Shown here piece by piece: positions 15,895 to 43,818 of a DNA stretch of 64,000 bases (within the stretch, counting starts at the first letter, position 1; each line of letters begins with the position of its first letter). The position numbers were made by a program, and so were the translations under genes. The notes under the pieces are model-generated. The model ran no database searches. It was not told the origin of the DNA and saw nothing but the letters and a program-made list of their open reading frames with translations. Location: positions 1 to 64,000 of IMG/VR virus record IMGVR_UViG_3300026549_000071; one strand, given 5' to 3'. Origin of the DNA: a virus (lineage: Duplodnaviria > Caudoviricetes).

Positions 15895-15964
15895 TATAAT
15901 ATTCCTCCTTTTAAGTTAACGACATGGGTTATTACAACTTATCTAAGGCAATAATATATATTCT

Positions 15965-16900
15965 AAAACAATTTTCAATTTTTGTGTTAAAAATAAAAAG
16001 CCGTATACAAGTTACTAAACCCCCCATAAACAAAATTTTAAAAGGTAATTCATATAAATCCATTTTATATAAAAATGGTGTTGTAATTATTTTTTAATGC
16101 TTTTCCTAGGGGGGTTTTCGTAGCTTTAACTATTCAAAAAAACACGGGTGTTTTTTTGAATTATTAATAGCTTCGAACTCATATAACTACGAAATACTAT
16201 TACTCATTGCTTATACTAACTACTTTTACTACGAATATTATTACCCAATACTTCTACGAAATTATACCATATAACATTCATAAAATGAATATAATATCTG
16301 TGATATGTTTATATAAACCTTGGTAAAAATACTATCAACTATAAAGAGTTGATAGTATCTATTTTATCTGTATAAATCACTGACGAGTGATTAAGATTGA
16401 TGGGAATATATGGGTATGATAATCAGTATAGTTACATATATTTTCATATTTGCAAGAATACATATGGGTTTTGTTTTCACATAGTGAAAACAAAACCCAT
16501 GTAGACTGATTAGGAGTGTAACAGTATCCGAGAGTAATATAGTATCTATAGGGAGTATAATTAGTATGATAGGGATACATACGGGTATTAGGGTAATACT
16601 AAGTATTACCCTAATACCCGTATGTATAGTATAGAACTGTTTTATATCAATCTTTACTATAGAGATGTATATTAGCGTAACACATGTATTACCCTGGATT
16701 ATATATTCTGTACGGTAGAGTATATAATTAATTTTTTTCTGTAACGAAAAGTAGTATTTACCCTCTAAGTTTTACAAATGATAAACTTCACTCTGAATTT
16801 CCCTAGGGGAGAAATCGAGCTAAGTTTAACAAATGTAAAACTTAGGGGTAGAAAAGATGATATGAGTGATTGAAATGTATCACTCATATCATCTTTTTTG
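15965..16900. repeat. Non-coding palindrome-dense region, candidate replication origin
   Basis: Perfect inverted repeats at 16132-16161, 16329-16358, 16464-16500 and 16575-16627; (A)CTACGAA x3; local switch from C-rich to G-rich. Confidence 0.55.
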
Positions 16901-16947
16901 TTACCGTATATGGATTTTATATCTATATAGGAGAAATCATAGTTATC

Positions 16948-24060: not shown

Positions 24061-25062
24061 TTACTCCATATTTGCCATCTTACGTAACTGATCTCCAGTT
24101 AATTGGAGCATATCCTTCTCAAACTCTGAGAATGTATGATATTCTCCATTAGCAAATTTCTTCATATAGCTATTGCTCTTCTTATGCTTCTTTTTCTTTC
24201 CATATTTATATCCACCAGATTCCTTCAGTTTCTTCTTACGAATCAACTTACGAGAACCTTTCGAAAGATGCTTCATTCCAACATGAAGTCCAATGCTCTC
24301 CAGATAATCCAGCGTCTGCATCTCATCCATTTGCTCTTTCGTCAGAGAAATGCCTTTATAGAAGACCAGTTTATCTGGGCTCTCTTCTTCATCAAACTCA
24401 TGAAAGTCCTTCTTATGAAGATATTCTTTATACTTGGCTGTGAAGGAAACTTTCTTTGGTTTGTGATACATTTCACGAAGCATTCTCTTACGAGCATCTT
24501 TCTTTGAAATTTTGATGGGTTTGGTACGATTCGTATAGAACTTATTGATCATATCAATCTCATTCGAAATTTGATTTGCTACGTCAGACGAATCATTCAA
24601 ATCCATCTTCATTGGATTCATTCCCTTAATGGGTTTGAAACTGAAAGCAAGTTTTACATGCTTCGGAATCTTCCAATTCGTCGGAATGACTGGCAGACCA
24701 AAATCATAATCACATGGAGTTTCCAATGGCATTCCATCATCAATATATTTGCGATTCTTCTTATTATGCTTCAATTTCGGGCAAAAAGATGGAACGTAAT
24801 CTTTCACCATTCCAATCTGGAACAGGAATTTCAAACGTTTCATTCCACCATATTTATCAATGAGCCATTGACCATATTCCGTATAGATTTCTTTTGCTCT
24901 GCACCATTCCCCAAAATCAGAATATTTCCGTTTCAGAGCTCTTACTTTATTGAGAAGTGGAGTATCTTCCCATTTCTCTTCATCATGATAATCATCTCCG
25001 AAATCATTAACCTGAGATTTGAACTCAGGATGATTCGGATATTCATATTCCTTTACTATCAT
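24061..25062 (-). CDS. Hypothetical Lys-rich protein
   Basis: 333-aa ORF, AAGGAG RBS, TATATATTAT motif at 25102. Confidence 0.7.
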   Translation of the reverse strand: MIVKEYEYPNHPEFKSQVNDFGDDYHDEEKWEDTPLLNKVRALKRKYSDFGEWCRAKEIYTEYGQWLIDKYGGMKRLKFLFQIGMVKDYVPSFCPKLKHNKKNRKYIDDGMPLETPCDYDFGLPVIPTNWKIPKHVKLAFSFKPIKGMNPMKMDLNDSSDVANQISNEIDMINKFYTNRTKPIKISKKDARKRMLREMYHKPKKVSFTAKYKEYLHKKDFHEFDEEESPDKLVFYKGISLTKEQMDEMQTLDYLESIGLHVGMKHLSKGSRKLIRKKKLKESGGYKYGKKKKHKKSNSYMKKFANGEYHTFSEFEKDMLQLTGDQLRKMANME

Positions 25063-25196
25063 TTTATTATAAATCTCCTTTCTTTCATTCGATCTAAATA
25101 AATAATATATATTTTAATCAACTATTGGATTTTCCGTCTGTAATACCATGTGAGTTCGAAGGTAAAAAATAAAAAAAAGAAGCTCCAAACTCTCCA

Positions 25197-25280
25197 CTAC
25201 GTTTTGACCTTCATGAGATTAGAACATGGCATGTATGCACAATCCTGCTGCTCCGTTAGAAACATAAACATATTCCGCAT
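25197..25280 (-). CDS. 27-aa peptide (MRNMFMFLTEQQDCAYMPCSNLMKVKT)
   Basis: Strong GAAAGGAG RBS at canonical spacing; T-run follows the stop. Confidence 0.4.
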   Translation of the reverse strand: MRNMFMFLTEQQDCAYMPCSNLMKVKT

Positions 25281-25424
25281 TTTGATTCATCTCCTTTCGG
25301 ATCATAGTAAAATGCGTCTATGTAAACATCGAGTCCATCGCATTTCTCGATGATTGATACTTATACAATATCTATTCATATATTATGAAAACCGATATTC
25401 CTTTGAAATATATATTATTCATCT

Positions 25425-26356
25425 AGTTACATAGAAATCGATTTTTGATTGACATGATAATAGCGAAAATTGATCTATGAAAATCATGGATATTTAAATT
25501 CGTTGATGCACAAACTTAGACTCAATTTGTCTATATATGGGATAAGTACCATTCAGTACGTGGAAACGTCAAAGACTTTGCGAGTGGGTTGGTGCTATAC
25601 ACGGGTCAATAATTTCGATCTTATCTCGGCAAATGAAGAGTGATCTTCATTTGTTTATCGATTCCTTAATAATTGCTCTTTCTGTCATAGAGAGAATAAG
25701 CATGGAGGAACGAATGTATCCTTCCCATGTAAAATCCTTAAGGATATCCAGAGTGAGGGATCATGAATGGGATAGAGGGCAATCTAAGATTCCAATTGAA
25801 TAATCTTAGGTATTAAAACGTTTCCTCTTGAGCTTCGTGAACTTGCTAGGGAGAAGATTTGAATGGACCTCGATATCGAATGATGAGATCAATGAGTAAG
25901 TCATATTTGGATGATTATGATACGAATAGATATAAGACCAAACGAGCATTCTCATTCGGTTATGATTGGATAAAATGACAGTAGATATAGATCATAAGAA
26001 ATTCGTCGTATAGTAAGATACAGCTTGATTTGTTGGTAGGCAATCATAGTAGAATTTCTTTGGTTAACTCATGATAAAACTCCCGTCATGTATATCGAGT
26101 ATCGTTGCAATACGATACTTTAACAATGGGATGTGTAGATATATACTACCTATCATATCGGTATAATATACAATCTATTTTGGATTTGTATATTCATCGT
26201 TCATTTAAGGTAAAGATGCATTGAAAAGACGCTAGAAAATTATCACTGGTTATTTCATCCTATAGATGAATCTCACAAATAATTTGCCTTAAGGAGAAGA
26301 ACGATTTTAACATACAGAAAATACAAAGGATGGATTCTTTCCATCCTTTGTATTTT
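25425..26356 (+). ncRNA. Candidate large structured non-coding RNA of about 0.8-0.9 kb
   Basis: No ORF of 60 aa or more on either strand; promoter motif at 25409; many stems with GNRA loops; 17-bp terminator at 26318-26356; 5' end uncertain. Confidence 0.6.
26318..26356 (+). terminator. Intrinsic terminator
   Basis: Perfect 17-bp stem followed by a T-run. Confidence 0.8.
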
Positions 26357-26400
26357 TATTTTGGCTTTCACAGTTTAGTATATAGAAGGAGTGTAAGAAT

Positions 26401-26895
26401 ATGAAAGGTAACGAAAAGTTTAAAATGTATACCTTATACGTTGGAAATATTCCAGTTGTATTTTGTGCAGATCGATGGCTAATTGAGCTGTATATTGTAC
26501 AACGGAAGTTAGTCGAAAAGAAGTATCAATTTCATCAGGATACCTATGATACGTCCATGTATAAAGAGTTTGATGATTATCTTGTATACTATTATGGTTA
26601 TGCAGTCACGCAACGAGAGCTTAAATATATCGTCAACTCAACAGAGGAATATGAATCGTTTCGGAAGTATAAGATTCATTCTCTTCAAGGATTTCTAGAG
26701 CGTTTTAATCATACATTAAAGAAATCGGAAAAGAAAGCACTTAAAGAAACGATCAAAATCCTAAAGAAGTATACATGCGAAAATGATGACTTTATTGAGT
26801 CACAGATTGATACCATCCTAAACCATAATGATATGGTAAAGGATTATATGGATGCAACGGATATGTTCCGAATGCATATGGAAGGAGAAATTTAA
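26401..26895 (+). CDS. Hypothetical protein
   Basis: AAGGAG RBS; CACA-N6-TA motif at 26369. Confidence 0.7.
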   Translation: MKGNEKFKMYTLYVGNIPVVFCADRWLIELYIVQRKLVEKKYQFHQDTYDTSMYKEFDDYLVYYYGYAVTQRELKYIVNSTEEYESFRKYKIHSLQGFLERFNHTLKKSEKKALKETIKILKKYTCENDDFIESQIDTILNHNDMVKDYMDATDMFRMHMEGEI

Positions 26896-26896
26896 G

Positions 26897-27706
26897 TTGA
26901 GAGATATTAAACTCATTGCAATTGATGGATTAGATGGAACTGGGAAAACAACCTTTGCAAAATTCTTATCCAATGATCTTCAATCGGATTATTATACGAA
27001 TAAGAAGTATGATGCAAGATACCAGCATTTCCCAGTCTATGAATTACAATCTGGAAAGAAGATCAAAGATTTTCTCTTCCATGAACCAGAACCATACAAG
27101 AGAGAAAATATTCTCAAAATGATTGATCTGCAAGAAACGAATCGAATGGAATGGACAGATCGTTTGATCTGGGATGACGTTTTAGTTCAAGATGACCGTC
27201 CATTGCTGATGATTGCAGATCGTTACATGCGTTCGAATGACATTTACAACGAAACAAGACTTCCGGATTGGAAGGAACGCTGTATCAATGCAGGAGAACG
27301 TGAATATGGAGATCATGCTATTCCAAGACCGGATCTCCAAATTTTTTGTTACTGTAACAGAAATCTTCAACGGAAGCGTTTAGAAGCAAGAAAGAATTTG
27401 GATCAGTATGAAGCATTAGATCATCTAGATGAACTGAATGATCGTTATATTACTTATTTGAAATGGTATATGACGATTGATCGTTTCAAGAGAAATACGG
27501 TATTTATTCCCATGCACTTATTTGATCGAGAATTTCTGAAAGAATCTCTGGATAATAAAAAATGGAATACGTACTATAAGGAAATTTTGAAAGATTACCT
27601 TAGTATTTTCCGTAAGTACATTCTTTCTCAGGAAACGAAAGAAGAATTCGTGAAAGAAATCAATGAACTCCATGAAGAAGAATTCAATGCTTACTTGGAG
27701 TCATAA
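26897..27706 (+). CDS. tmk: Thymidylate/dNMP kinase-like protein
   Basis: IAIDGLDGTGKTT P-loop and IADRY motif; TTG start behind GAAGGAG. Confidence 0.75.
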   Translation: MRDIKLIAIDGLDGTGKTTFAKFLSNDLQSDYYTNKKYDARYQHFPVYELQSGKKIKDFLFHEPEPYKRENILKMIDLQETNRMEWTDRLIWDDVLVQDDRPLLMIADRYMRSNDIYNETRLPDWKERCINAGEREYGDHAIPRPDLQIFCYCNRNLQRKRLEARKNLDQYEALDHLDELNDRYITYLKWYMTIDRFKRNTVFIPMHLFDREFLKESLDNKKWNTYYKEILKDYLSIFRKYILSQETKEEFVKEINELHEEEFNAYLES

Positions 27707-27792
27707 GAGTAGTTTATTAACAGCAAGAAACAAAGCATTAGGCAGTGTTTCTTGCTGTTGTTTCTCTACTACGGAAAGGATGTCAGAAACCG

Positions 27793-28560
27793 ATGAGGAA
27801 AATGATTCAAATTCATACCATTGGAGATGCTAATGTTTTAAACGCGTCGGTCCAAAATCCACCTGCAAGTTTTTATTTCATTGAGGGAAACGTTCTTTTT
27901 TTATTCGAGTATTCTCCCATGTGCGATGAATATATCCGTCTTCATAAGAAGGAATTCAAAGCATTGAAGGATATTATTCTCTGTTATACATCTCCAGTTT
28001 ATATGAATGGAGTACAAGTACATCACTCAACCTTAGTACATGAATTCATTGAAGGAGTATTTCATTGTATTGATCATCATGATCGAATTCATGTACGCTT
28101 GATGACTGTATCTCCAAATTCGAATCCAATTATTATTGATTATGAAAAGCAAAAAAATGTCATTACTGAAAGAAATATTACGTCACAAGATCCCAATGCA
28201 AATATTGTATTTACGAATGAAAGTATCCTCTTTGTAGCAATGGATACCATATATACAAAGAAAGGATATTCTACCATTACCATTTGGAAACAGATGGAAG
28301 AAGGATATTGGAGTTGCCTTCTTCACTATACGGGCCGTTTTGGATCCTTGAATGAATACACAGTAAAGTTCTTAATGGAACATCCACATGCGATTCTTGT
28401 GTATTATATCAATCGTTCGTTCTACAAATCAGATCATAACTTATCAGTAAAGGAACTCTGTTATCGAATTATGAATACCTTCGATGATATGAGAAATCCC
28501 ATCACCTTGCTTGGATTTACGAATCCAAACGAGGCAAAATTTATTCGTGAGAGAATGTGA
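27793..28560 (+). CDS. Hypothetical protein
   Basis: Long ORF within the plus-strand operon; start approximate. Confidence 0.65.
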   Translation: MRKMIQIHTIGDANVLNASVQNPPASFYFIEGNVLFLFEYSPMCDEYIRLHKKEFKALKDIILCYTSPVYMNGVQVHHSTLVHEFIEGVFHCIDHHDRIHVRLMTVSPNSNPIIIDYEKQKNVITERNITSQDPNANIVFTNESILFVAMDTIYTKKGYSTITIWKQMEEGYWSCLLHYTGRFGSLNEYTVKFLMEHPHAILVYYINRSFYKSDHNLSVKELCYRIMNTFDDMRNPITLLGFTNPNEAKFIRERM

Positions 28561-28619
28561 TGCTATGGTAAGTTAATGATCTGCCGCTTTATATCGTCAC
28601 CGGAAAGTGAGTCACTGAT

Positions 28620-28961
28620 ATGAAAATGAGTAAGACCAAACAACGAAAGGAATTGATCCTTCAACGTAAAAAAGATAAATATGGATATTTTGGTCTGTTC
28701 CGGATAGAAGAGGTTTATCCCTTCCAATTGTATATGCAAAGGTATAAGCACTTCAAACTAGCTGTAACCCAAGGAAATGAACTCATTCATATGATAAAAG
28801 ACGGTTTACACGTCATTGTATGGTACGATGAAAAACTGCGGCAATGTTGCTCGAATCGATATGGAATGTGCATGTGGTATGTTTACCATACGTTTGATGA
28901 AGAATATATGGAAGACTTTTTAGCATATGAAAAGGAGCATGAAATTTATTATGCAATCTAA
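28620..28961 (+). CDS. Hypothetical protein
   Basis: 113-aa ORF overlapping the thyX start. Confidence 0.6.
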   Translation: MKMSKTKQRKELILQRKKDKYGYFGLFRIEEVYPFQLYMQRYKHFKLAVTQGNELIHMIKDGLHVIVWYDEKLRQCCSNRYGMCMWYVYHTFDEEYMEDFLAYEKEHEIYYAI

Positions 28962-29823
28962 AGTTAATGTAAAACGAGTAGGAAATGGTGAAGTTGTTTT
29001 AATTGCTGGTGGTGGAAAAGTATACAGCGATATTGCAGCAAGGTTCTGTCGTACGGAGAAAGATGTTCATGATATCATTGCATCTCCGTATAATAAGAAA
29101 CTGGTTCAAACTATTTTGGATTCTGGTCATTATGCTGCAACAGAATTTGACTACTTCATCTTTGGAATCCAAGGTTACTCTCGTGTAACCGAAACTCAAT
29201 TGGTTCGCAAGCGTTTAGCCAGTTATTTGATTAAATCTGGTCGTGCAGAAGAGCACGGGAAACGAAACTTTGATGTTGTTCTTCCGAAAGATCAGAGATT
29301 ATTGGATCTTCCCAGAGGAGAAGTTCATCTGGATCCATCTCAAGTGATTGTGGAATATAAAGATGGAGTTAAGATCTCTTTGGAACAGGTGGTTCCATGT
29401 TCTACAGCAGAAGTGTATCTGAATAGTGCACAACTGTTAGATGCAATGGCATCATTCTATGATGATGCTGTGTTGAATCATGGAATTAAAGAAGAAGACG
29501 CACGTTACTTTAAACCTCAAGCAACGGAGTTCAAAGCAATTATTGGAATGAATGCCCATGCATTACGGGATTGGTTTAAGATTCGTTGCTGCAATCGAGC
29601 ACAATCTGAAATCCGTGATCTTGCATGGAAAATGCTTCGTTTATGCAAAGAAGCTGCTCCAGATCTCTTTGAAGGTGCTGGACCTAGTTGTGTTGCACTT
29701 GGTCTTTGCCCAGAGATGGAACAGTGTGAGCAGAATAAAGGAAAGATTCCTACATTGAAAGCATTTAAAGAAGCAAAAAATACGAAAGAATACAAAGACT
29801 TTGCAAAAGTCATGATGAAATAA
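28951..29823 (+). CDS. thyX: FAD-dependent thymidylate synthase ThyX
   Basis: GHYAATEF, SRVTETQLVRKRLASYLIKSGR (RHRx7S-type motif), EDARYFKP, MNAHALRDWFKIRCCNRAQSEIR. Confidence 0.9.
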   Translation: MQSKVNVKRVGNGEVVLIAGGGKVYSDIAARFCRTEKDVHDIIASPYNKKLVQTILDSGHYAATEFDYFIFGIQGYSRVTETQLVRKRLASYLIKSGRAEEHGKRNFDVVLPKDQRLLDLPRGEVHLDPSQVIVEYKDGVKISLEQVVPCSTAEVYLNSAQLLDAMASFYDDAVLNHGIKEEDARYFKPQATEFKAIIGMNAHALRDWFKIRCCNRAQSEIRDLAWKMLRLCKEAAPDLFEGAGPSCVALGLCPEMEQCEQNKGKIPTLKAFKEAKNTKEYKDFAKVMMK

Positions 29824-32111: not shown

Positions 32112-32123
32112 AACAATGATGTA
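32112..32123 (+). promoter_or_regulatory. Recurrent NACA-N6-TA motif (putative late phage promoter), representative copy
   Basis: Intergenic copies at 8600, 12314, 26369, 32112, 35212, 38328, 38841, 45897, 48882, 50896, 55883 (+) and 34702-34713 (-); short motif, so some may be chance. Confidence 0.6.
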
Positions 32124-38858: not shown

Positions 38859-38949
38859 GGAGCGGTACTCAAGCGGTCGAAGAGGTCAGTCTTGAAAACT
38901 GAGAGACCATTCATTTGGTGCGTGGGTTCGAATCCTACTCGCTCCGCCA
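38859..38949 (+). tRNA. trnS: tRNA-Ser(TGA)
   Basis: Acceptor GGAGCGG/TCGCTCC, anticodon loop CTTGAAA, long variable arm, TTCGAAT T-loop, encoded CCA. Confidence 0.92.
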
Positions 38950-38955
38950 TTTTAT

Positions 38956-39029
38956 TCTGGCGTAGTTTAATGGTAAAGCACTTCCCCTCCAAGGAAGATT
39001 TGTGGGTTCAATCCCCATCGCCAGATCCA
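38956..39029 (+). tRNA. trnG: tRNA-Gly(TCC)
   Basis: Acceptor TCTGGCG/CGCCAGA, loop CCTCCAA, U discriminator, encoded CCA. Confidence 0.9.
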
Positions 39030-39035
39030 TTTTAT

Positions 39036-39111
39036 AGCCCTTTAGCCAAGTTGGTAAAGGCATAGCGCTTTGACCGCTAGATCGCTGGTTCGATCCCAGC
39101 AAGGGTTGCCA
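39036..39111 (+). tRNA. trnQ: tRNA-Gln(TTG)
   Basis: Acceptor AGCCCTT/AAGGGTT, loop CTTTGAC, encoded CCA. Confidence 0.9.
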
Positions 39112-39115
39112 TTTT

Positions 39116-39186
39116 AGGGTCATAGTTTAATGGTAGAACAACGGTCTCCAAAACCGTTAGTCATCGTTCGAGTCGATGTGATCCTG
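39116..39186 (+). tRNA. trnW: tRNA-Trp(CCA), 3' CCA not encoded
   Basis: Acceptor AGGGTCA/TGATCCT, loop CTCCAAA, T-arm CATCG-TTCGAGT-CGATG. Confidence 0.88.
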
Positions 39187-40523: not shown

Positions 40524-40821
40524 CGTTGTATTCACATGGGTCGTTAATCCATGCAGTTCTCTTATGAACTTCTATATGTCACCATATAGTCCAGACTATA
40601 TCTTTATTCCTATTACTAGGAATTGCTCCATTTCGATTTAAGGGATTTTCACCCACTCACTTGAGCCCTACTCCTATTGCCGAATTTCACGGCTCCATTT
40701 GGATAGTCGTTGAACCTTCTCTTTCGAGCTTGGCTGCTGATTGTCTCTTTTTAAATAGAGAGTTCCCAGCAATTAAGAGCTAGGAGAATCATAGATTACT
40801 CTATGAAACGAACTAAATTTA
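40524..40821 (-). mobile_element. Group I self-splicing intron (IA-like, 298 nt, no homing endonuclease ORF)
   Basis: P AAUUGCUGGGAAC (40762-40774), Q GACAAUCAGCAGCC (40732-40745), R UUCAACGACUA (40704-40714), S AAGAUAUAGUCU (40593-40604); 5' exon ends in U, intron ends in G; splicing restores ASKQN-KHLIPV. Confidence 0.92.
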
Positions 40822-43818
40822 ATTCTGCTTCGAGGCCATAGCGGTACGAATGGCATCATCCATGGTAACACCAATGCCATTCACAAGTTCCGAATAACCA
40901 AAGAGTTTCGTCTGATCCATTTGATCAGGAGATTCTTTGCAATCAATGAAACCTCTTGTATTGGTTACTTTCGGATCAATGGTCAATTCACGTACCACAC
41001 CACAGTTTGCATCTGGAGATGTACTAATCGTCATACAGCCAATCATCGTTTGATCAAAGCAACGTTTTTCTTTTGTATAAGAACGTTCTAGGTTGATACC
41101 AGAAGGTCCTTTACATGTGATTGCACGTTCCTTTTCTTTTTCTGTGATTGGATTAATGATTGACACATCTTCTACGACGTTACTCGTCAAGATTTCTTTG
41201 ATGATAGCATCTTTCGGTAACGAAATCTTTTCTGGTGTTGCATATTTTGCCTTACGTTTGTAATTGGAGTATGATGCAGAAAGTGCTTTATAGAGATAAG
41301 CACTAATCATTTCCAAGTTACGTACACGGAATTCTGTTAAGGAAAGTTCCGATGAGGAAGCATTATCCGACAGAAGATCGGACGCTGCAAGCATCAATTG
41401 TACGAAATCCGTAGGCAAATCCATTTGCTTTAAGATCTCTTCACTGATTGGATCAATCATATTATCATAATACGCATCCAAACCAGATGCCAATGCACGA
41501 TTGCTATACTTCATATCAAAGAAATCCAAGTATGGCATTTGTGTATCGAAATCAGAATAGTTATATGCTTTCGTATCAATAAATGTCAATCCGCTCATAA
41601 GAAGAGAATGAGCCGTTGGAGTTAAGCTGTATACGAGATACCCATCTGCGAACTGAATGGCTGCTTGATCAACTCCAAGATCTCTCGGATTCTTATCCGT
41701 AAAATGATACTGAATACCTTCCTTATTCATGACGGTTGTTAAACCTTCAAAATAGCTAAGGAAGATAATACTCGGAATCATCTTATTCATAACCTTGCAA
41801 GCAGAATACATGAAACGCTTACCTGGTTTATCTTTTGGACCTTGAAGATCCCAGAAGTTCTTTCCAGTTTCTTTCTCATAGATATGAACGAATGTATCAA
41901 TAGGTCCATTTAACGTTTCTTTTCCATCATCTTTTTCCGTTCCATCGGATTCAATGGGACAGACGTATGCTTTTATCTTTGCATTCTCACGTCCATCATA
42001 AACACAGTAAATGTATTTATCATCATTGATATCTTCCAGTTTCTTATCATGGCGAAGTTCATCATAGAACTTTTGATCAAACTTCAAACCGATTCCTTTT
42101 CCACGAATGGTAATCCCTGAGAATTCTTTTGCAAGAGAATCATACTCAATCGAAGTCATATGACCATTATTGACACCCATACCATTTCCTCGTTTTACCT
42201 TGAAAATGGCAGGATTATTTGCAATGATTTTCTTGAAGATCGTTACCTTCGGAGAAACTGTATCGCCTAAACGATATACAAAGATCTTATTATAGTTCGT
42301 GCAAACCTGAACACGATCCGCAGAGATTTTAATCAACGGTTTCAAAATCTGCTGATTGACGAATTGCTTTCTGTTACCAGCAAGATAGAGATAGTTGTTA
42401 TCATAGACCTTAGGAATATCTACCGTGACACTGTGACGAACTCCATCTTCCGTCTGAAGTTTTACCGTCCAAGTTTCCTTCAGATCCATTGCAGTTGATG
42501 TATCTTCACGTTTGATGTTCGTAATCACAGCAGGAAGATTTTTCTTCTTATTCAGGGAACGAAATACATTGATGATATCCTTATCCTTGACGTTTTCATT
42601 ATACGATTTATTGATGTTATCGAAACGAATTTTCTTTACGCTCTTATTTGGCGTAAAGAGTTTATCCGAGATATCGTCCGATTCAATCGTATAATCAATC
42701 TTTGAAGTATCTTCCAAATCTCCTAAGGAGATATTATCCAACTTCAGTTCTTTCTGTTTCTGACGAAGTGCTTGAAAACGTTTATTTTCCGGAGCTGTAC
42801 GATTCATCTCCTGAAAATTCGTATCAATGGCTTTCTTCGCCAATTCCATCTCATCTTCAGTAAGTTCTTCATGTGTTTTGACAGGATCTTCCTCTGTAAG
42901 ATCTGCCTTTGGTTCTTTTTTATCAACGATTGTAGTCGATGCAGGAGTAGGAACTGCACGAGGAGATGATTTATCTTCCTCTTCTTTTTCCTTCTGCTGA
43001 ATCTTTTCAACTTCTTTTTCTTTCTCGATTTTCTCTTCTTCCGTTTCTGGAGAGAGATCCAAATTGATTTCTTTTGATTTGCATTTATTCATGCAAGAAT
43101 AGAGTTTCATACTGATTTCTTTTTCCGTATGACTCATATCCCAGTAGAACAAACCAAACGTATCATCGAGAATAATCAATGTATAATCCTTTAATGGCTC
43201 TAAACCTTCAGGATCTTTCTTTAGGAGTTCATAAAACATTGAAATCGGATTCATCATCTTCTGATTAATGCTCATGACTTTCGAACGATTACTGGTACTA
43301 ATTCCCCACGATTTCGTATCCAAAATCAGGTAACGGTGTTCATGGTTCAATCCAGCACAAACTGTTTTCAGGTAACGAGCAAGATGCCGCACATACGATT
43401 TGCAGAGTATGGGATAATTCTTTCCCTTAGAATGTTCCAAGAAAGCACTATTTACATCACTCGTATCCACAAAGATATTCTTATTACGAACTCCCGCTGG
43501 TTTCGTATAGAGTGTTAATTTGAGTTTCTTTACATCATTCGACAGTGTTGCGATTTCACTTGCATCCATCTTTTCACGGATGGTTGTTGTGAAGATCTTA
43601 TCCGTATAACGAAACGGTTTATAATACCGAGCAAATTTAGAGTCTCGATACAGTAACAGATTCTTCAAGATATCTGAACACTGTGTTGGGTTTTTAATCA
43701 AGAGACCAATGAAAGTTCCTTCCAAAGGTTTCTTTGGATCATATGGGAGTCGGGTAAGTGTGGTCTTATATTTCAATTCACCATAGTCTTCCAGTTTATT
43801 CGCCATATGAGAATTCAC
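40822..43818 (-). CDS. rpoB: Phage RNA polymerase beta (large piece), exon 1; spliced product 1385 aa
   Basis: RAITCKGPSG, STSPDANCGVVREL and DDAIRTAMASKQ align with RpoB LGPGG, ETPEGPNIGL and DDANRALMGANMQ; long N-terminal extension. Confidence 0.88.

What the first reader, a model, noticed from the sequence alone, without database searches (positions are those of the whole stretch)
25425..26356. ORF-free, hairpin-rich transcription unit of about 900 nt: candidate large ornate ncRNA
Seen: in an otherwise densely coding genome, 25360-26400 has no ORF of 60 aa or more on either strand. It is bracketed by a TATATATTAT motif (25409) and a perfect 17-bp terminator (26318-26356). It contains GNRA-capped stems (ACGT-GGAA-ACGT 25558-25569; an 11-bp stem with GTGA loop 25629-25654; a stem with GCAA loop 26098-26119), further stems at 25784-25809 and 26165-26194, and nested long-range pairings (25892-97 with 26067-72; 25961-68 with 26041-48). 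It lacks group I P7 motifs and tRNA-like ends. Established: Bacillota phages carry large ncRNAs such as GOLLD and ROOL. Inference: this is either a divergent member of those classes or a new class.
Basis: partly seen in the sequence, partly recalled or inferred. Interest (0 to 1): 0.78.

Follow-up and report, generated by a model that had tools for sequence, protein, structure and literature searches.

The report
New large structured jumbo-phage RNA
The gene-free kilobase is a real, conserved gene for a folded non-coding RNA of about 930 bases. An uncultured giant phage probably makes it at the very start of infection; it matches no catalogued RNA family and its job is unknown.

Summary
Window 25063-26400 is the largest ORF-free gap of the 74-kb phage record. 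It contains a promoter-to-terminator unit on the + strand, about 25425-26357.

The promoter (AAATATATATTAT, 25406-25418) matches the published early, virion-RNA-polymerase promoter of phage AR9. Its core occurs 22 times in the record.

The unit is not protein-coding. Its longest ORFs are frameshifted or truncated in a relative with 94.7% identity, and no peptide is conserved in distant relatives.

Four other metagenomic phages carry a homologous ORF-free stretch of 0.85-1.05 kb. It lies in the same place, just upstream of a conserved 164-aa gene, and ends in a terminator. Their flanking protein is only 40-48% identical, yet blocks of the RNA are invariant.

Several helices keep pairing through double changes. 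The consensus folding energy is 6 sd better than column shuffles on the + strand, while the reverse complement is no better than the shuffles.

No Rfam family matches (GOLLD, ROOL, OLE, HEARO, introns, RNase P, tmRNA). I read it as a new family of large structured phage RNA, made as an independent early transcript. Its function is open; the main rival is a cis-acting leader.

The scan has noted other, apparently unrelated, large jumbo-phage RNAs on other DNA.

The parts
25406..25418 (+). Early (virion RNA polymerase type) promoter AAATATATATTAT
   Evidence: Identical to the AR9 early consensus AAATATATATTAT-(6N)-G+1 (PMC5312081). The core TATATATTAT occurs 20 times in the window against 0.6 expected and 22 times in the record, with extended consensus TTTnRAA-TATATATTAT-N5-T-R. 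The same motif sits at the homologous place in L010 and L006.
25425..25425 (+). Predicted transcription start (A, after T at position 6 downstream of the motif)
   Evidence: Inferred by analogy with the mapped AR9 starts (+1 follows six bases after the motif). Positions 15-16 after the motif are conserved as T then a purine in 21 of 22 copies. Not measured.
25425..26357 (+). Body of the non-coding RNA, about 930 nt
   Evidence: No conserved ORF. Homologous to L010, L006, L009 and L132. Consensus fold z = -6.3 on the + strand only.
25537..25553 (+). Conserved hairpin AUGG-GAUAAGUA-CCAU (block GGGAUAAGUACC invariant)
   Evidence: Invariant in 4 sequences. The closing pair changes on both sides in L009 (U-A to A-U; GAGG/CCUC). 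L132 keeps GG/UU.
25556..25570 (+). GNRA-capped hairpin GACGU-GGAA-ACGUC
   Evidence: L006 has ACGA-GUAA-UCGU (U-A to A-U, loop still GNRA) and L009 has ACGU-GUAA-ACGU. All cells paired.
25629..25654 (+). Peripheral 11-bp hairpin with GUGA loop, variable
   Evidence: Present in window and L010, different in L009, deleted in L006.
25752..25764 (+). 5' strands of two stacked helices (AGUGAG, UCAU) that close a variable insert (25765-25836)
   Evidence: They pair with 25837-25847. L009 has AGUGUC/GAUGCU, L132 AGUAAA/UUUGCU, L006 and L009 CCAU/GUGG. 100% of cells are paired, with 3 double changes.
25837..25902 (+). Most conserved core: GUGA-ACUUGCUAGGGAGAAG...CCUCG...GAGUAAGUC
   Evidence: UGCUAGG, CUCG and AGUAA are invariant in all five lineages. 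This block is the basis of covariance model R1, which finds exactly one copy in each of the five contigs (E 1e-16 to 4e-31) and nothing else.
25914..25966 (+). 8-bp helix (25914-21/25959-66) around an invariant loop AGAUAUAAGACCAAA..GCAUUC (25928-25951)
   Evidence: Strands are AUUAUGAU/GUUAUGAU (window), UUUAACGU/GCGUUAAA (L006) and GGUGGCGU/GCGUUGCC (L009). 5-6 of 8 pairs change on both sides and 97% of cells are paired.
25984..26096 (+). Domain of nested helices (25984-89/26091-96; 25990-98/26058-65; 26002-04/26052-54; 26070-75/26085-90)
   Evidence: Found on two different alignments. GAUAUA/UAUAUC becomes GAUACA/UGUAUC in L006 and GGUAGA/UCUACC in L009.
26138..26272 (+). 3' domain: hairpin 26138-42/26155-59, helix 26183-93/26262-72, conserved UUGAAAAGACGC (26221-26232)
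   Evidence: GAUAU/AUAUC becomes GUCGU/ACGAC in L006. The long helix has 6 double changes on the E-INS-i alignment only, so it is tentative. UUGAAAAGA is invariant in 4 sequences.
26318..26364 (+). Intrinsic terminator: perfect 17-bp stem, 5-nt loop, then TTTTTATTTT
   Evidence: It is 100% identical in L010. Hairpin-plus-T-run terminators of different sequence sit at the same place in L006, L009 and L132.
26369..26380 (+). Late-promoter-like CACAGTTTAGTA for the downstream gene
   Evidence: One base from the AR9 late consensus AACA-(6N)-TA. Kept as CACAATTTAATA in L006. [AC]ACA-N6-TA lies within 70 nt upstream of 16% of genes, against 1.8% of random 70-nt stretches. Inference, not measured.
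26401..26895 (+). Conserved neighbour: 164-aa protein of unknown fold, first gene of a dTMP kinase / ThyX block
   Evidence: Every RNA copy lies directly upstream of a homologue. No Pfam or PHROG family. AF2 pLDDT 91, no PDB match.
25102..25111 (-). Divergent early promoter of the 333-aa gene (24061-25062); not part of the RNA
   Evidence: 40 nt upstream of that gene's ATG. The 300 nt between the two promoters are poorly conserved, about 74% identical to L010.

Best explanation
Window 25425-26357 (+) is the gene of a new family of large (about 0.85-1.05 kb), multi-domain, structured non-coding RNA. It is carried by a small clade of uncultured jumbo phages distantly related to AR9/PBS1.

Shown:
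- It is non-coding.
- It is conserved in sequence blocks and in base pairing, on the + strand only, across phages whose neighbouring protein is 40-48% identical.
- It starts behind the phage's recurrent early-promoter motif.
- It ends at an intrinsic terminator in every lineage.

Inferred:
- The injected virion RNA polymerase transcribes it at the onset of infection, as a unit separate from the downstream gene. That gene has its own promoter-like site behind the terminator (late-like in the window, L006 and L132; early in L009).
- The RNA then acts in trans through its three-dimensional fold. Its invariant loops (GAUAAGUA, AGAUAUAAGACCAAA..GCAUUC, UGCUAGGG, UUGAAAAGA) and GNRA tetraloops would serve as tertiary contacts or as binding sites for a protein partner. 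The RNA would thus be a scaffold, a decoy for a host factor, or a self-assembling particle like ROOL/GOLLD.

The confidence given is for 'conserved, independently transcribed structured ncRNA of a new family'. Any particular molecular role is much less certain; I put the trans-acting architectural role at about 0.4.
For: Promoter: AAATATATATTAT at 25406-25418 equals the AR9 early consensus. The core is 33-fold over-represented, with a conserved T-purine start site.

Terminator: and at the same place in all homologues.

Non-coding:
- Longest ORFs are 57 and 56 aa without ribosome-binding sites.
- L010 (94.7% identical) has 1-nt indels in the first ORF and TGG to TGA in the second. The same change truncates the nested 30-aa ORF that has a good RBS.
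- Substitutions show no codon periodicity (12/13/16), whereas most neighbouring genes change chiefly at third positions.
- Six-frame peptide matches to L006, L009 and L132 are short, in shifting frames and on both strands.

Homologues:
- L006 is 70% identical over 241 nt and 61% over 574 nt; L009 is related to L006.
- Model R1 finds one copy each in window, L010, L006, L009 and L132 at E 1e-16 to 4e-31, always + and always upstream of the 164-aa gene.
- One more contig has a 1043-nt gap there, but no DNA could be read.

Structure:
- Consensus energy is -142.7 against -102.0 +/- 6.5 for 30 column shuffles, and -104.0 for the reverse complement.
- 43 of 106 pairs have changes on both sides, against 17.3 +/- 3.0 when 3' letters are shuffled and 4-12 when partners are slid. 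94% of cells are paired.
- The same nine helices appear on two independent alignments.
- 19% of paired cells are G-U.

It is a single copy in the record.
Against:
- There are only four effectively independent lineages, so R-scape-type significance per pair is out of reach. The alifold-derived structure is partly circular. Several long-range pairings differ between alignments.
- The single-sequence MFE structure as a whole is not preserved in relatives better than slid controls.
- Without the terminator the single-sequence z-score is only -2.8, and it is -2.5 on the other strand.
- Between the window and L010 the RNA changes about as fast as third codon positions. Much of it is therefore weakly constrained.
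- Constant adjacency to one gene and the very short distance to its start codon fit a cis role as well.
- L132 has an early-promoter motif inside the 3' part, before the terminator hairpin.
Confidence: 0.75

Rival explanations
1. Cis-acting leader or attenuator. The structured RNA, or at least its 3' domain with the terminator, would control read-through from the early promoter into the 164-aa / dTMP kinase / ThyX operon. It would act as a very large riboswitch-like or antitermination element.
For: - Every copy lies directly upstream of, and on the same strand as, the 164-aa gene, while the upstream neighbour differs in each lineage.
- The terminator ends 45 nt before the ATG.
- In L132 a perfect TATATATTAT lies inside the 3' domain. 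It is followed by the conserved UGAAAAG motif, a hairpin and the terminator.
- Other homologues of the gene have 370-460-nt ORF-free leaders behind an early promoter and no terminator.
Against: - The gene has its own promoter-like site behind the terminator: an early motif in L009 and late-like sites in the window, L006 and L132.
- 0.9 kb with several independently folding domains is far beyond known leaders.
- No riboswitch, T-box or leader family matches.
- Homologous operons in L133 and L137 have no such element.
- The short leaders are not matched by model R1 even with filters off.
Confidence: 0.13
2. Small-protein genes or a decayed protein gene. The unit would encode one or more peptides (57, 56 or 30 aa), or be the wreck of a lost gene.
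For: The phage does have early cassettes with ORFs of about 50 aa (earlier notes). A 30-aa ORF at 25714 has a GGAGG site 5 nt upstream.
Against: - Frameshifts and a stop in L010 disrupt all three ORFs.
- The region holding the 30-aa ORF is deleted in L006 and L009.
- No conserved peptide and no codon periodicity.
- A wreck would not keep invariant blocks and compensatory pairs at 40% protein identity.
Confidence: 0.04
3. Remnant or unusual form of a known ribozyme or mobile RNA. Candidates are an ORF-less group I or II intron, an RNase P-like RNA, or a self-cleaving element, too divergent for Rfam.
For: Its size, GNRA tetraloops and multi-helix junctions resemble large ribozymes. The same phage has a true group I intron in its RNA polymerase gene.
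Against: - There are no exons: a promoter lies upstream and a terminator downstream.
- No intron, RNase P, tmRNA or self-cleaving ribozyme model matches at E up to 10 in the window or up to 1 in three homologues.
- No tRNA-like module.
- The reverse complement of the invariant loop is not found elsewhere.
Confidence: 0.05
4. A DNA-level element, such as a replication origin, packaging site or recombination hotspot, at the junction of two divergent gene blocks.
For: It lies at a strand switch and at a rearrangement point relative to the more distant phage L003. The adjacent 25190-25405 is hypervariable.
Against: - The conserved structure is strand-specific, and one paired cell in five is G-U.
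- No tandem repeats or iterons.
- In L009 and L132 it lies between co-oriented genes.
Confidence: 0.03

Closest known systems
GOLLD (Rfam RF01998) and ROOL (RF03087), large ornate RNAs of phages and prophages of Bacillota; cryo-EM shows RNA-only multimeric assemblies (PMC12286853)
   Same: - Phage-borne, 0.6-0.9 kb, non-coding, and multi-domain.
- Invariant loops are interspersed with variable peripheral hairpins.
- It is its own transcription unit and its function is unknown.
   Different: - No sequence or structure match by cmscan.
- It lies 13 kb from the tRNA cluster, not beside it.
- It sits behind a jumbo-phage virion-RNA-polymerase early promoter.
- It is known so far only from a handful of metagenomic jumbo-phage contigs.
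- Multimerisation was not tested.
AR9/PBS1 early transcription units (AAATATATATTAT-(6N)-G+1; PMC5312081)
   Same: Identical promoter consensus and spacing. The phage also carries an AR9-like split RNA polymerase beta subunit at 31% identity.
   Different: AR9 early units described so far are protein-coding. Neither this RNA nor the 164-aa gene has a match in 50,697 deposited phage genomes.
OLE (RF01071), HEARO/omega RNA (RF02033), raiA (RF03072) and other large bacterial ncRNAs
   Same: A large, conserved, structured RNA found by comparative analysis.
   Different: No model match. There is no adjacent IscB/TnpB-type nuclease or OLE-associated protein genes. The context is phage, not bacterial chromosome.
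Other large jumbo-phage RNAs noted by this scan on other genomes (e1-5374059, e1-5388208, e1-1995353 and others; unchecked AI notes)
   Same: ORF-free units of 0.5-1 kb behind an early promoter in jumbo phages, absent from Rfam.
   Different: No shared words with this stretch in the scan's index. Different phage groups (for example RaK2-like enterobacterial phages), copy numbers and features (for example a hammerhead). Homology was not tested here.

Membership tests
GOLLD (RF01998) | Match to the Rfam covariance model (conserved multi-stem core with pseudoknots) | tested here: not met
   No hit at gathering score, at E up to 10 on 25000-26700, or at E up to 1 on L006, L009 and L132.
GOLLD / ROOL | Usual location next to tRNA genes in phage or prophage | tested here: not met
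   The tRNA cluster is at 38859-39186, 12.5 kb away. There are no tRNAs in 24900-26600.
ROOL (RF03087) | Match to the Rfam covariance model | tested here: not met
   no hit.
ROOL / GOLLD / OLE | Homo-oligomeric RNA-only assembly | not testable with these tools
   Needs cryo-EM or native gels of the transcript.
OLE (RF01071), HEARO (RF02033), raiA (RF03072) | Match to the Rfam model, and associated genes (oapA/B/C; IscB) | tested here: not met
   No model hit. Neighbours are a 333-aa and a 164-aa protein without Pfam families, dTMP kinase and ThyX.
Group I / group II introns | Catalytic core (P3-P9 with P7; domain V) and flanking exons that join into one ORF | tested here: not met
   The Intron_gpI model finds the true intron at 40572-40830 but nothing here. 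No group II model hit. A promoter lies upstream and a terminator downstream, so there are no exons.
RNase P RNA, tmRNA, 6S, SRP RNA | Rfam model or ARAGORN match | tested here: not met
Riboswitch / T-box / leader (cis-regulatory) | Known aptamer model; terminator-antiterminator alternative; no separate promoter for the regulated gene | tested here: inconclusive
   No aptamer or leader model matches. A terminator sits 45 nt before the ATG. However, promoter-like sites lie behind it: early in L009, late-like in the window, L006 and L132. No alternative antiterminator pairing was sought.
AR9-type early (vRNAP) transcription unit | AAATATATATTAT, then six bases, then a purine start | tested here: met
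   25406-25418 matches 13 of 13 bases, and A25425 follows six bases. Use by a virion RNA polymerase is inferred.
Conserved structured ncRNA (general criterion) | Covariation and strand-specific consensus structure beyond shuffled controls | tested here: met
   z = -6.3 against column shuffles on +, none on -. 43 pairs change on both sides against 17 +/- 3 shuffled and 4-12 slid. Caveat: only 4 lineages.

The most novel reading that the evidence does not exclude
A previously undescribed class of ornate RNA of about 1 kb. A lineage of AR9-like jumbo phages would make it with their injected virion RNA polymerase in the first minutes of infection. It would act through its own fold, as a ribozyme, an RNA-only assembly, or a decoy or scaffold for a host factor, rather than as a leader. 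It would be the first such RNA tied to the early programme of phages with multisubunit RNA polymerases.
Probability: 0.55. Interest if true: 0.8.

Novelty: new variant of a known kind. Interest (0 to 1): 0.7.

Why it matters
Large structured non-coding RNAs are rare. Only a handful of bacterial and phage classes are known, each has been a source of new RNA biology, and most still lack a function.

This one adds three things: a new fold family, a jumbo-phage context, and a defined place in the infection programme (an early unit behind a virion-polymerase promoter). That makes its role testable once a host or a cultured relative is found.

At about 930 nt, with invariant loops and GNRA tetraloops, it is also a good subject for cryo-EM and for RNA structure prediction benchmarks. 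If the cis-leader rival were right instead, it would be by far the largest regulatory leader known for a nucleotide-metabolism operon.

Tried and rejected
- blastn (distant mode) of 25000-26500 against 50,697 phage records found no match. tblastn of both flanking proteins found no match.
- Single-protein scans of IMG/VR with four window proteins found no relatives. The family-alignment scan of IMG/VR found none.
- Exact-motif scans:
  - AGATATAAGACCAAA in IMG/VR gave 117 stretches, all chance by nhmmer.
  - A composite core motif gave one chance hit in IMG/VR and two in GTDB genomes, from GC-rich coding DNA, Vibrio and Paraburkholderia.
- The more distant relative L003 (333-aa gene 36% identical) has a different gene order and no similar DNA.
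- The short ORF-free leaders of L007, L011, L138, L131 and L003 share a GCUAGG-like motif by eye. Model R1 does not match them even with filters off, so I do not count them as members.
- The window's own MFE structure, taken as the conserved structure, was rejected: changed pairs are kept no more often than in slid controls.
- mafft-qinsi is not installed.
- The predicted structure of the 164-aa neighbour was searched against the PDB. There was no match at E below 0.5, so it gives no functional hint.
- A search for the complement of the invariant loop in the window, as a test of an antisense-target idea, found nothing beyond chance.
- A second covariance model for the 5' domain was dropped. 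The MAFFT alignment puts L009 one column out of register in the candidate closing helix, and alignments cannot be edited.

Full report
**Context.** The window is the first 64 kb of a 74-kb IMG/VR virus record that CheckV rates 30% complete. That points to a genome of roughly 250 kb. Its large RNA polymerase beta-like protein, split by a group I intron, is about 31% identical to those of the Bacillota jumbo phages Staphylococcus SA1/S6, Listeria LPJP1 and Bacillus AR9/PBS1. This is therefore an uncultured, distant relative of the AR9 group. A Bacillota host is an inference from these relatives, the 35% G+C and the strong GGAGG ribosome sites.

**The observation.** Between the start of a minus-strand 333-aa gene (25062) and the start of a plus-strand 164-aa gene (26401) lie 1338 nt without any ORF above 67 aa. 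In 25360-26400 no ORF exceeds 57 aa. It is the largest gap of the record, which is otherwise 86% coding. TATATATTAT at 25409 and the perfect 17-bp hairpin with T run at 26318-26364 are as described. So are the named local stems.

Hairpin richness alone is weak evidence. Without the terminator the fold is 2.8 sd better than dinucleotide shuffles on the + strand and 2.5 sd on the - strand.

**Promoter and transcription unit.**
- TATATATTAT occurs 20 times in the window against 0.6 expected and 22 times in the record. The extended consensus is TTTnRAA-TATATATTAT-N5-T-purine.
- The AR9 transcriptome paper gives the early, virion-RNA-polymerase promoter as AAATATATATTAT-(6N)-G+1 and the late one as AACA-(6N)-TA/G (PMC5312081).
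- The site at 25406-25418 matches the early consensus at all 13 bases, which places the start at A25425. A second copy at 25102-25111 on the other strand serves the 333-aa gene.
- In the other units checked the motif lies within 13-91 nt of a start codon. Here the next real gene is 980 nt away, behind a strong terminator.
- Between terminator and gene lies CACAGTTTAGTA (26369-26380), one base from the AR9 late consensus. It is kept as CACAATTTAATA in L006. Such sites are nine-fold enriched upstream of genes.
- In L009 a full early motif stands between terminator and gene.

The RNA thus looks like a unit of its own. All of this is inference from sequence; no RNA data could be obtained.

**Not coding.**
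- The 57-aa and 56-aa ORFs lack ribosome sites.
- The related contig L010 (JGI metagenome) is 94.7% identical over the RNA and 97.5-98.8% over the neighbouring genes. It has single-base indels inside the first ORF and TGG to TGA in the second. That same change also truncates the only ORF with a good ribosome site (30 aa, from 25714).
- Substitutions fall evenly on the three phases (12/13/16). In four of the five neighbouring genes most fall on third positions; dTMP kinase is the exception.
- Six-frame comparison with three distant homologues yields only short matches in shifting frames on both strands.

**Homologues.** The window's DNA and its flanking proteins have no match in deposited phages or, by close-relative scans, in IMG/VR. 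An exhaustive profile-free search found 30 homologues of the 164-aa protein. Their contigs show the following:

| Contig | 164-aa protein identity | ORF-free stretch upstream |
|---|---|---|
| L006 | 48% | at least 935 nt |
| L009 | 40% | 1209 nt |
| L132 | 40% | 986 nt |
| P0026 contig (no DNA) | - | 1043 nt |
| L010 | 99% | as window |

- L006 aligns to the window at 70% over 241 nt and 61% over 574 nt. L009 aligns to L006.
- A covariance model of the core block (R1) finds exactly one copy in each of the five contigs (E 1e-16 to 4e-31). The copy is always on the gene's strand and just upstream of it. R1 finds none elsewhere in the record.
- The upstream neighbour differs in every lineage. 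In the more distant L003 the gene order is rearranged and nothing similar is present.
- Other homologues of the gene have no gap (L133, L137) or have shorter 370-460-nt leaders that R1 does not recognise.

**Conserved structure.** Invariant blocks stand between variable, indel-rich stretches. The blocks are GGGAUAAGUACC, ACGNGNAANCGU, GAGU..GG..CAU, UGCUAGG, CUCG, AGUAA, AGAUAUAAGACCAAA..GCAUUC and UUGAAAAGA.

RNAalifold on two different alignments recovers the same nine helices. Examples:
- The GNRA hairpin is ACGU-GGAA-ACGU in the window and ACGA-GUAA-UCGU in L006.
- AGUGAG/CUUGCU becomes AGUGUC/GAUGCU in L009 and AGUAAA/UUUGCU in L132. L132 was not used to predict this helix.
- AUUAUGAU/GUUAUGAU becomes UUUAACGU/GCGUUAAA in L006 and GGUGGCGU/GCGUUGCC in L009.
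- GAUAUA/UAUAUC becomes GAUACA/UGUAUC and GGUAGA/UCUACC.

Controls:
- The consensus energy is -142.7 kcal/mol, against -102.0 +/- 6.5 for 30 column shuffles and -104.0 for the reverse complement.
- 94% of cells are paired. 43 of 106 pairs change on both sides, against 17 +/- 3 after shuffling and 4-12 after sliding partners.
- 19% of paired cells are G-U.

Caveats:
- There are only four independent lineages.
- The structure was derived from the same alignment.
- Long-range partners of 25522-25537, 25574-25580 and 25614-25627 differ between alignments.
- The window's own MFE structure is not conserved as a whole.

**What it is not.** No Rfam 15 family matches in the window or in three homologues. 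That excludes recognisable GOLLD, ROOL, OLE, HEARO, raiA, introns, RNase P, tmRNA, riboswitches and self-cleaving ribozymes. There are no tRNA-like modules or tandem repeats. The literature held here describes no such RNA in jumbo phages. A catalogue of 10,006 viral candidate RNAs (PMC10690425) required three IMG/VR regions. My motif scans of IMG/VR found no second copy.

**Mechanism.** I commit to an independent early transcript that works in trans through its fold, as a protein scaffold or decoy, or as a self-assembling particle. It would be made by the injected polymerase before any phage protein exists.

The main rival is a cis-acting leader of the nucleotide-metabolism operon. It is favoured by the constant adjacency and by an early-promoter motif inside the 3' domain of L132. 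It is disfavoured by the separate promoters, the size and the operons that lack the element.

The neighbour protein gave no hint: confident model, no known fold.

**Verdict.** This is a real, conserved, structured non-coding RNA gene of a family absent from Rfam. It is the same kind of object as GOLLD/ROOL but unrelated to them, and it sits in a new setting. The scan has flagged other large jumbo-phage RNAs on other genomes. None shares sequence words with this one.

Noticed in passing
window 15895-16947: Second-largest ORF-free gap of the record (1053 nt). It lies between two minus-strand genes, upstream of the early promoter at 15951-15960. Not examined; no Rfam hit at gathering score.
   Followed up: no
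whole record; e.g. window 26369-26380, 27729-27740, 32112-32123: [AC]ACA-N6-TA, like the AR9 late (non-virion polymerase) promoter, lies within 70 nt upstream of 16% of genes against 1.8% of random stretches. The 22 early motifs share TTTnRAA-TATATATTAT-N5-T-purine. The phage seems to keep the AR9 two-promoter system despite about 31% polymerase identity.
   Followed up: partly
L003:1-9000 versus window 24061-29823: In the relative L003 the 333-aa gene and the dTMP kinase/ThyX block are collinear on one strand. In the window they are divergent, and the RNA lies at the junction, so there is an inversion or rearrangement point here.
   Followed up: no
L132:2853-2862: A perfect TATATATTAT with the right start-site context lies inside the 3' part of the L132 RNA, about 90 nt before its terminator hairpin. 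It could give a short nested 3' RNA or a leader of the downstream gene.
   Followed up: no
L011:2590-2970, L007:60-423, L138:377-847: Other homologues of the 164-aa gene have 370-460-nt ORF-free leaders directly behind an early promoter and without a terminator. L007 and L011 are 60% identical over 383 nt. This may be a second, smaller structured leader family; model R1 does not match it.
   Followed up: partly
window 26401-26895: The conserved 164-aa protein folds confidently (pLDDT 91): an N-terminal beta sheet plus a helical bundle. It has no PDB match at E below 0.5 and no Pfam or PHROG family.
   Followed up: partly
window 25190-25405: The stretch between the two divergent early promoters is replaced or only about 74% identical in L010, while the flanks are 98% identical. 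This looks like a local recombination or hypervariable spot. It holds a 23-aa minus-strand ORF whose ribosome site repeats that of the 333-aa gene (25280-25298 versus 25064-25082).
   Followed up: no
L133:5600-6471: The ThyX homologue of this relative is called as a 632-aa product with a LAGLIDADG hit, which suggests an intein or intron-encoded endonuclease in thyX.
   Followed up: no
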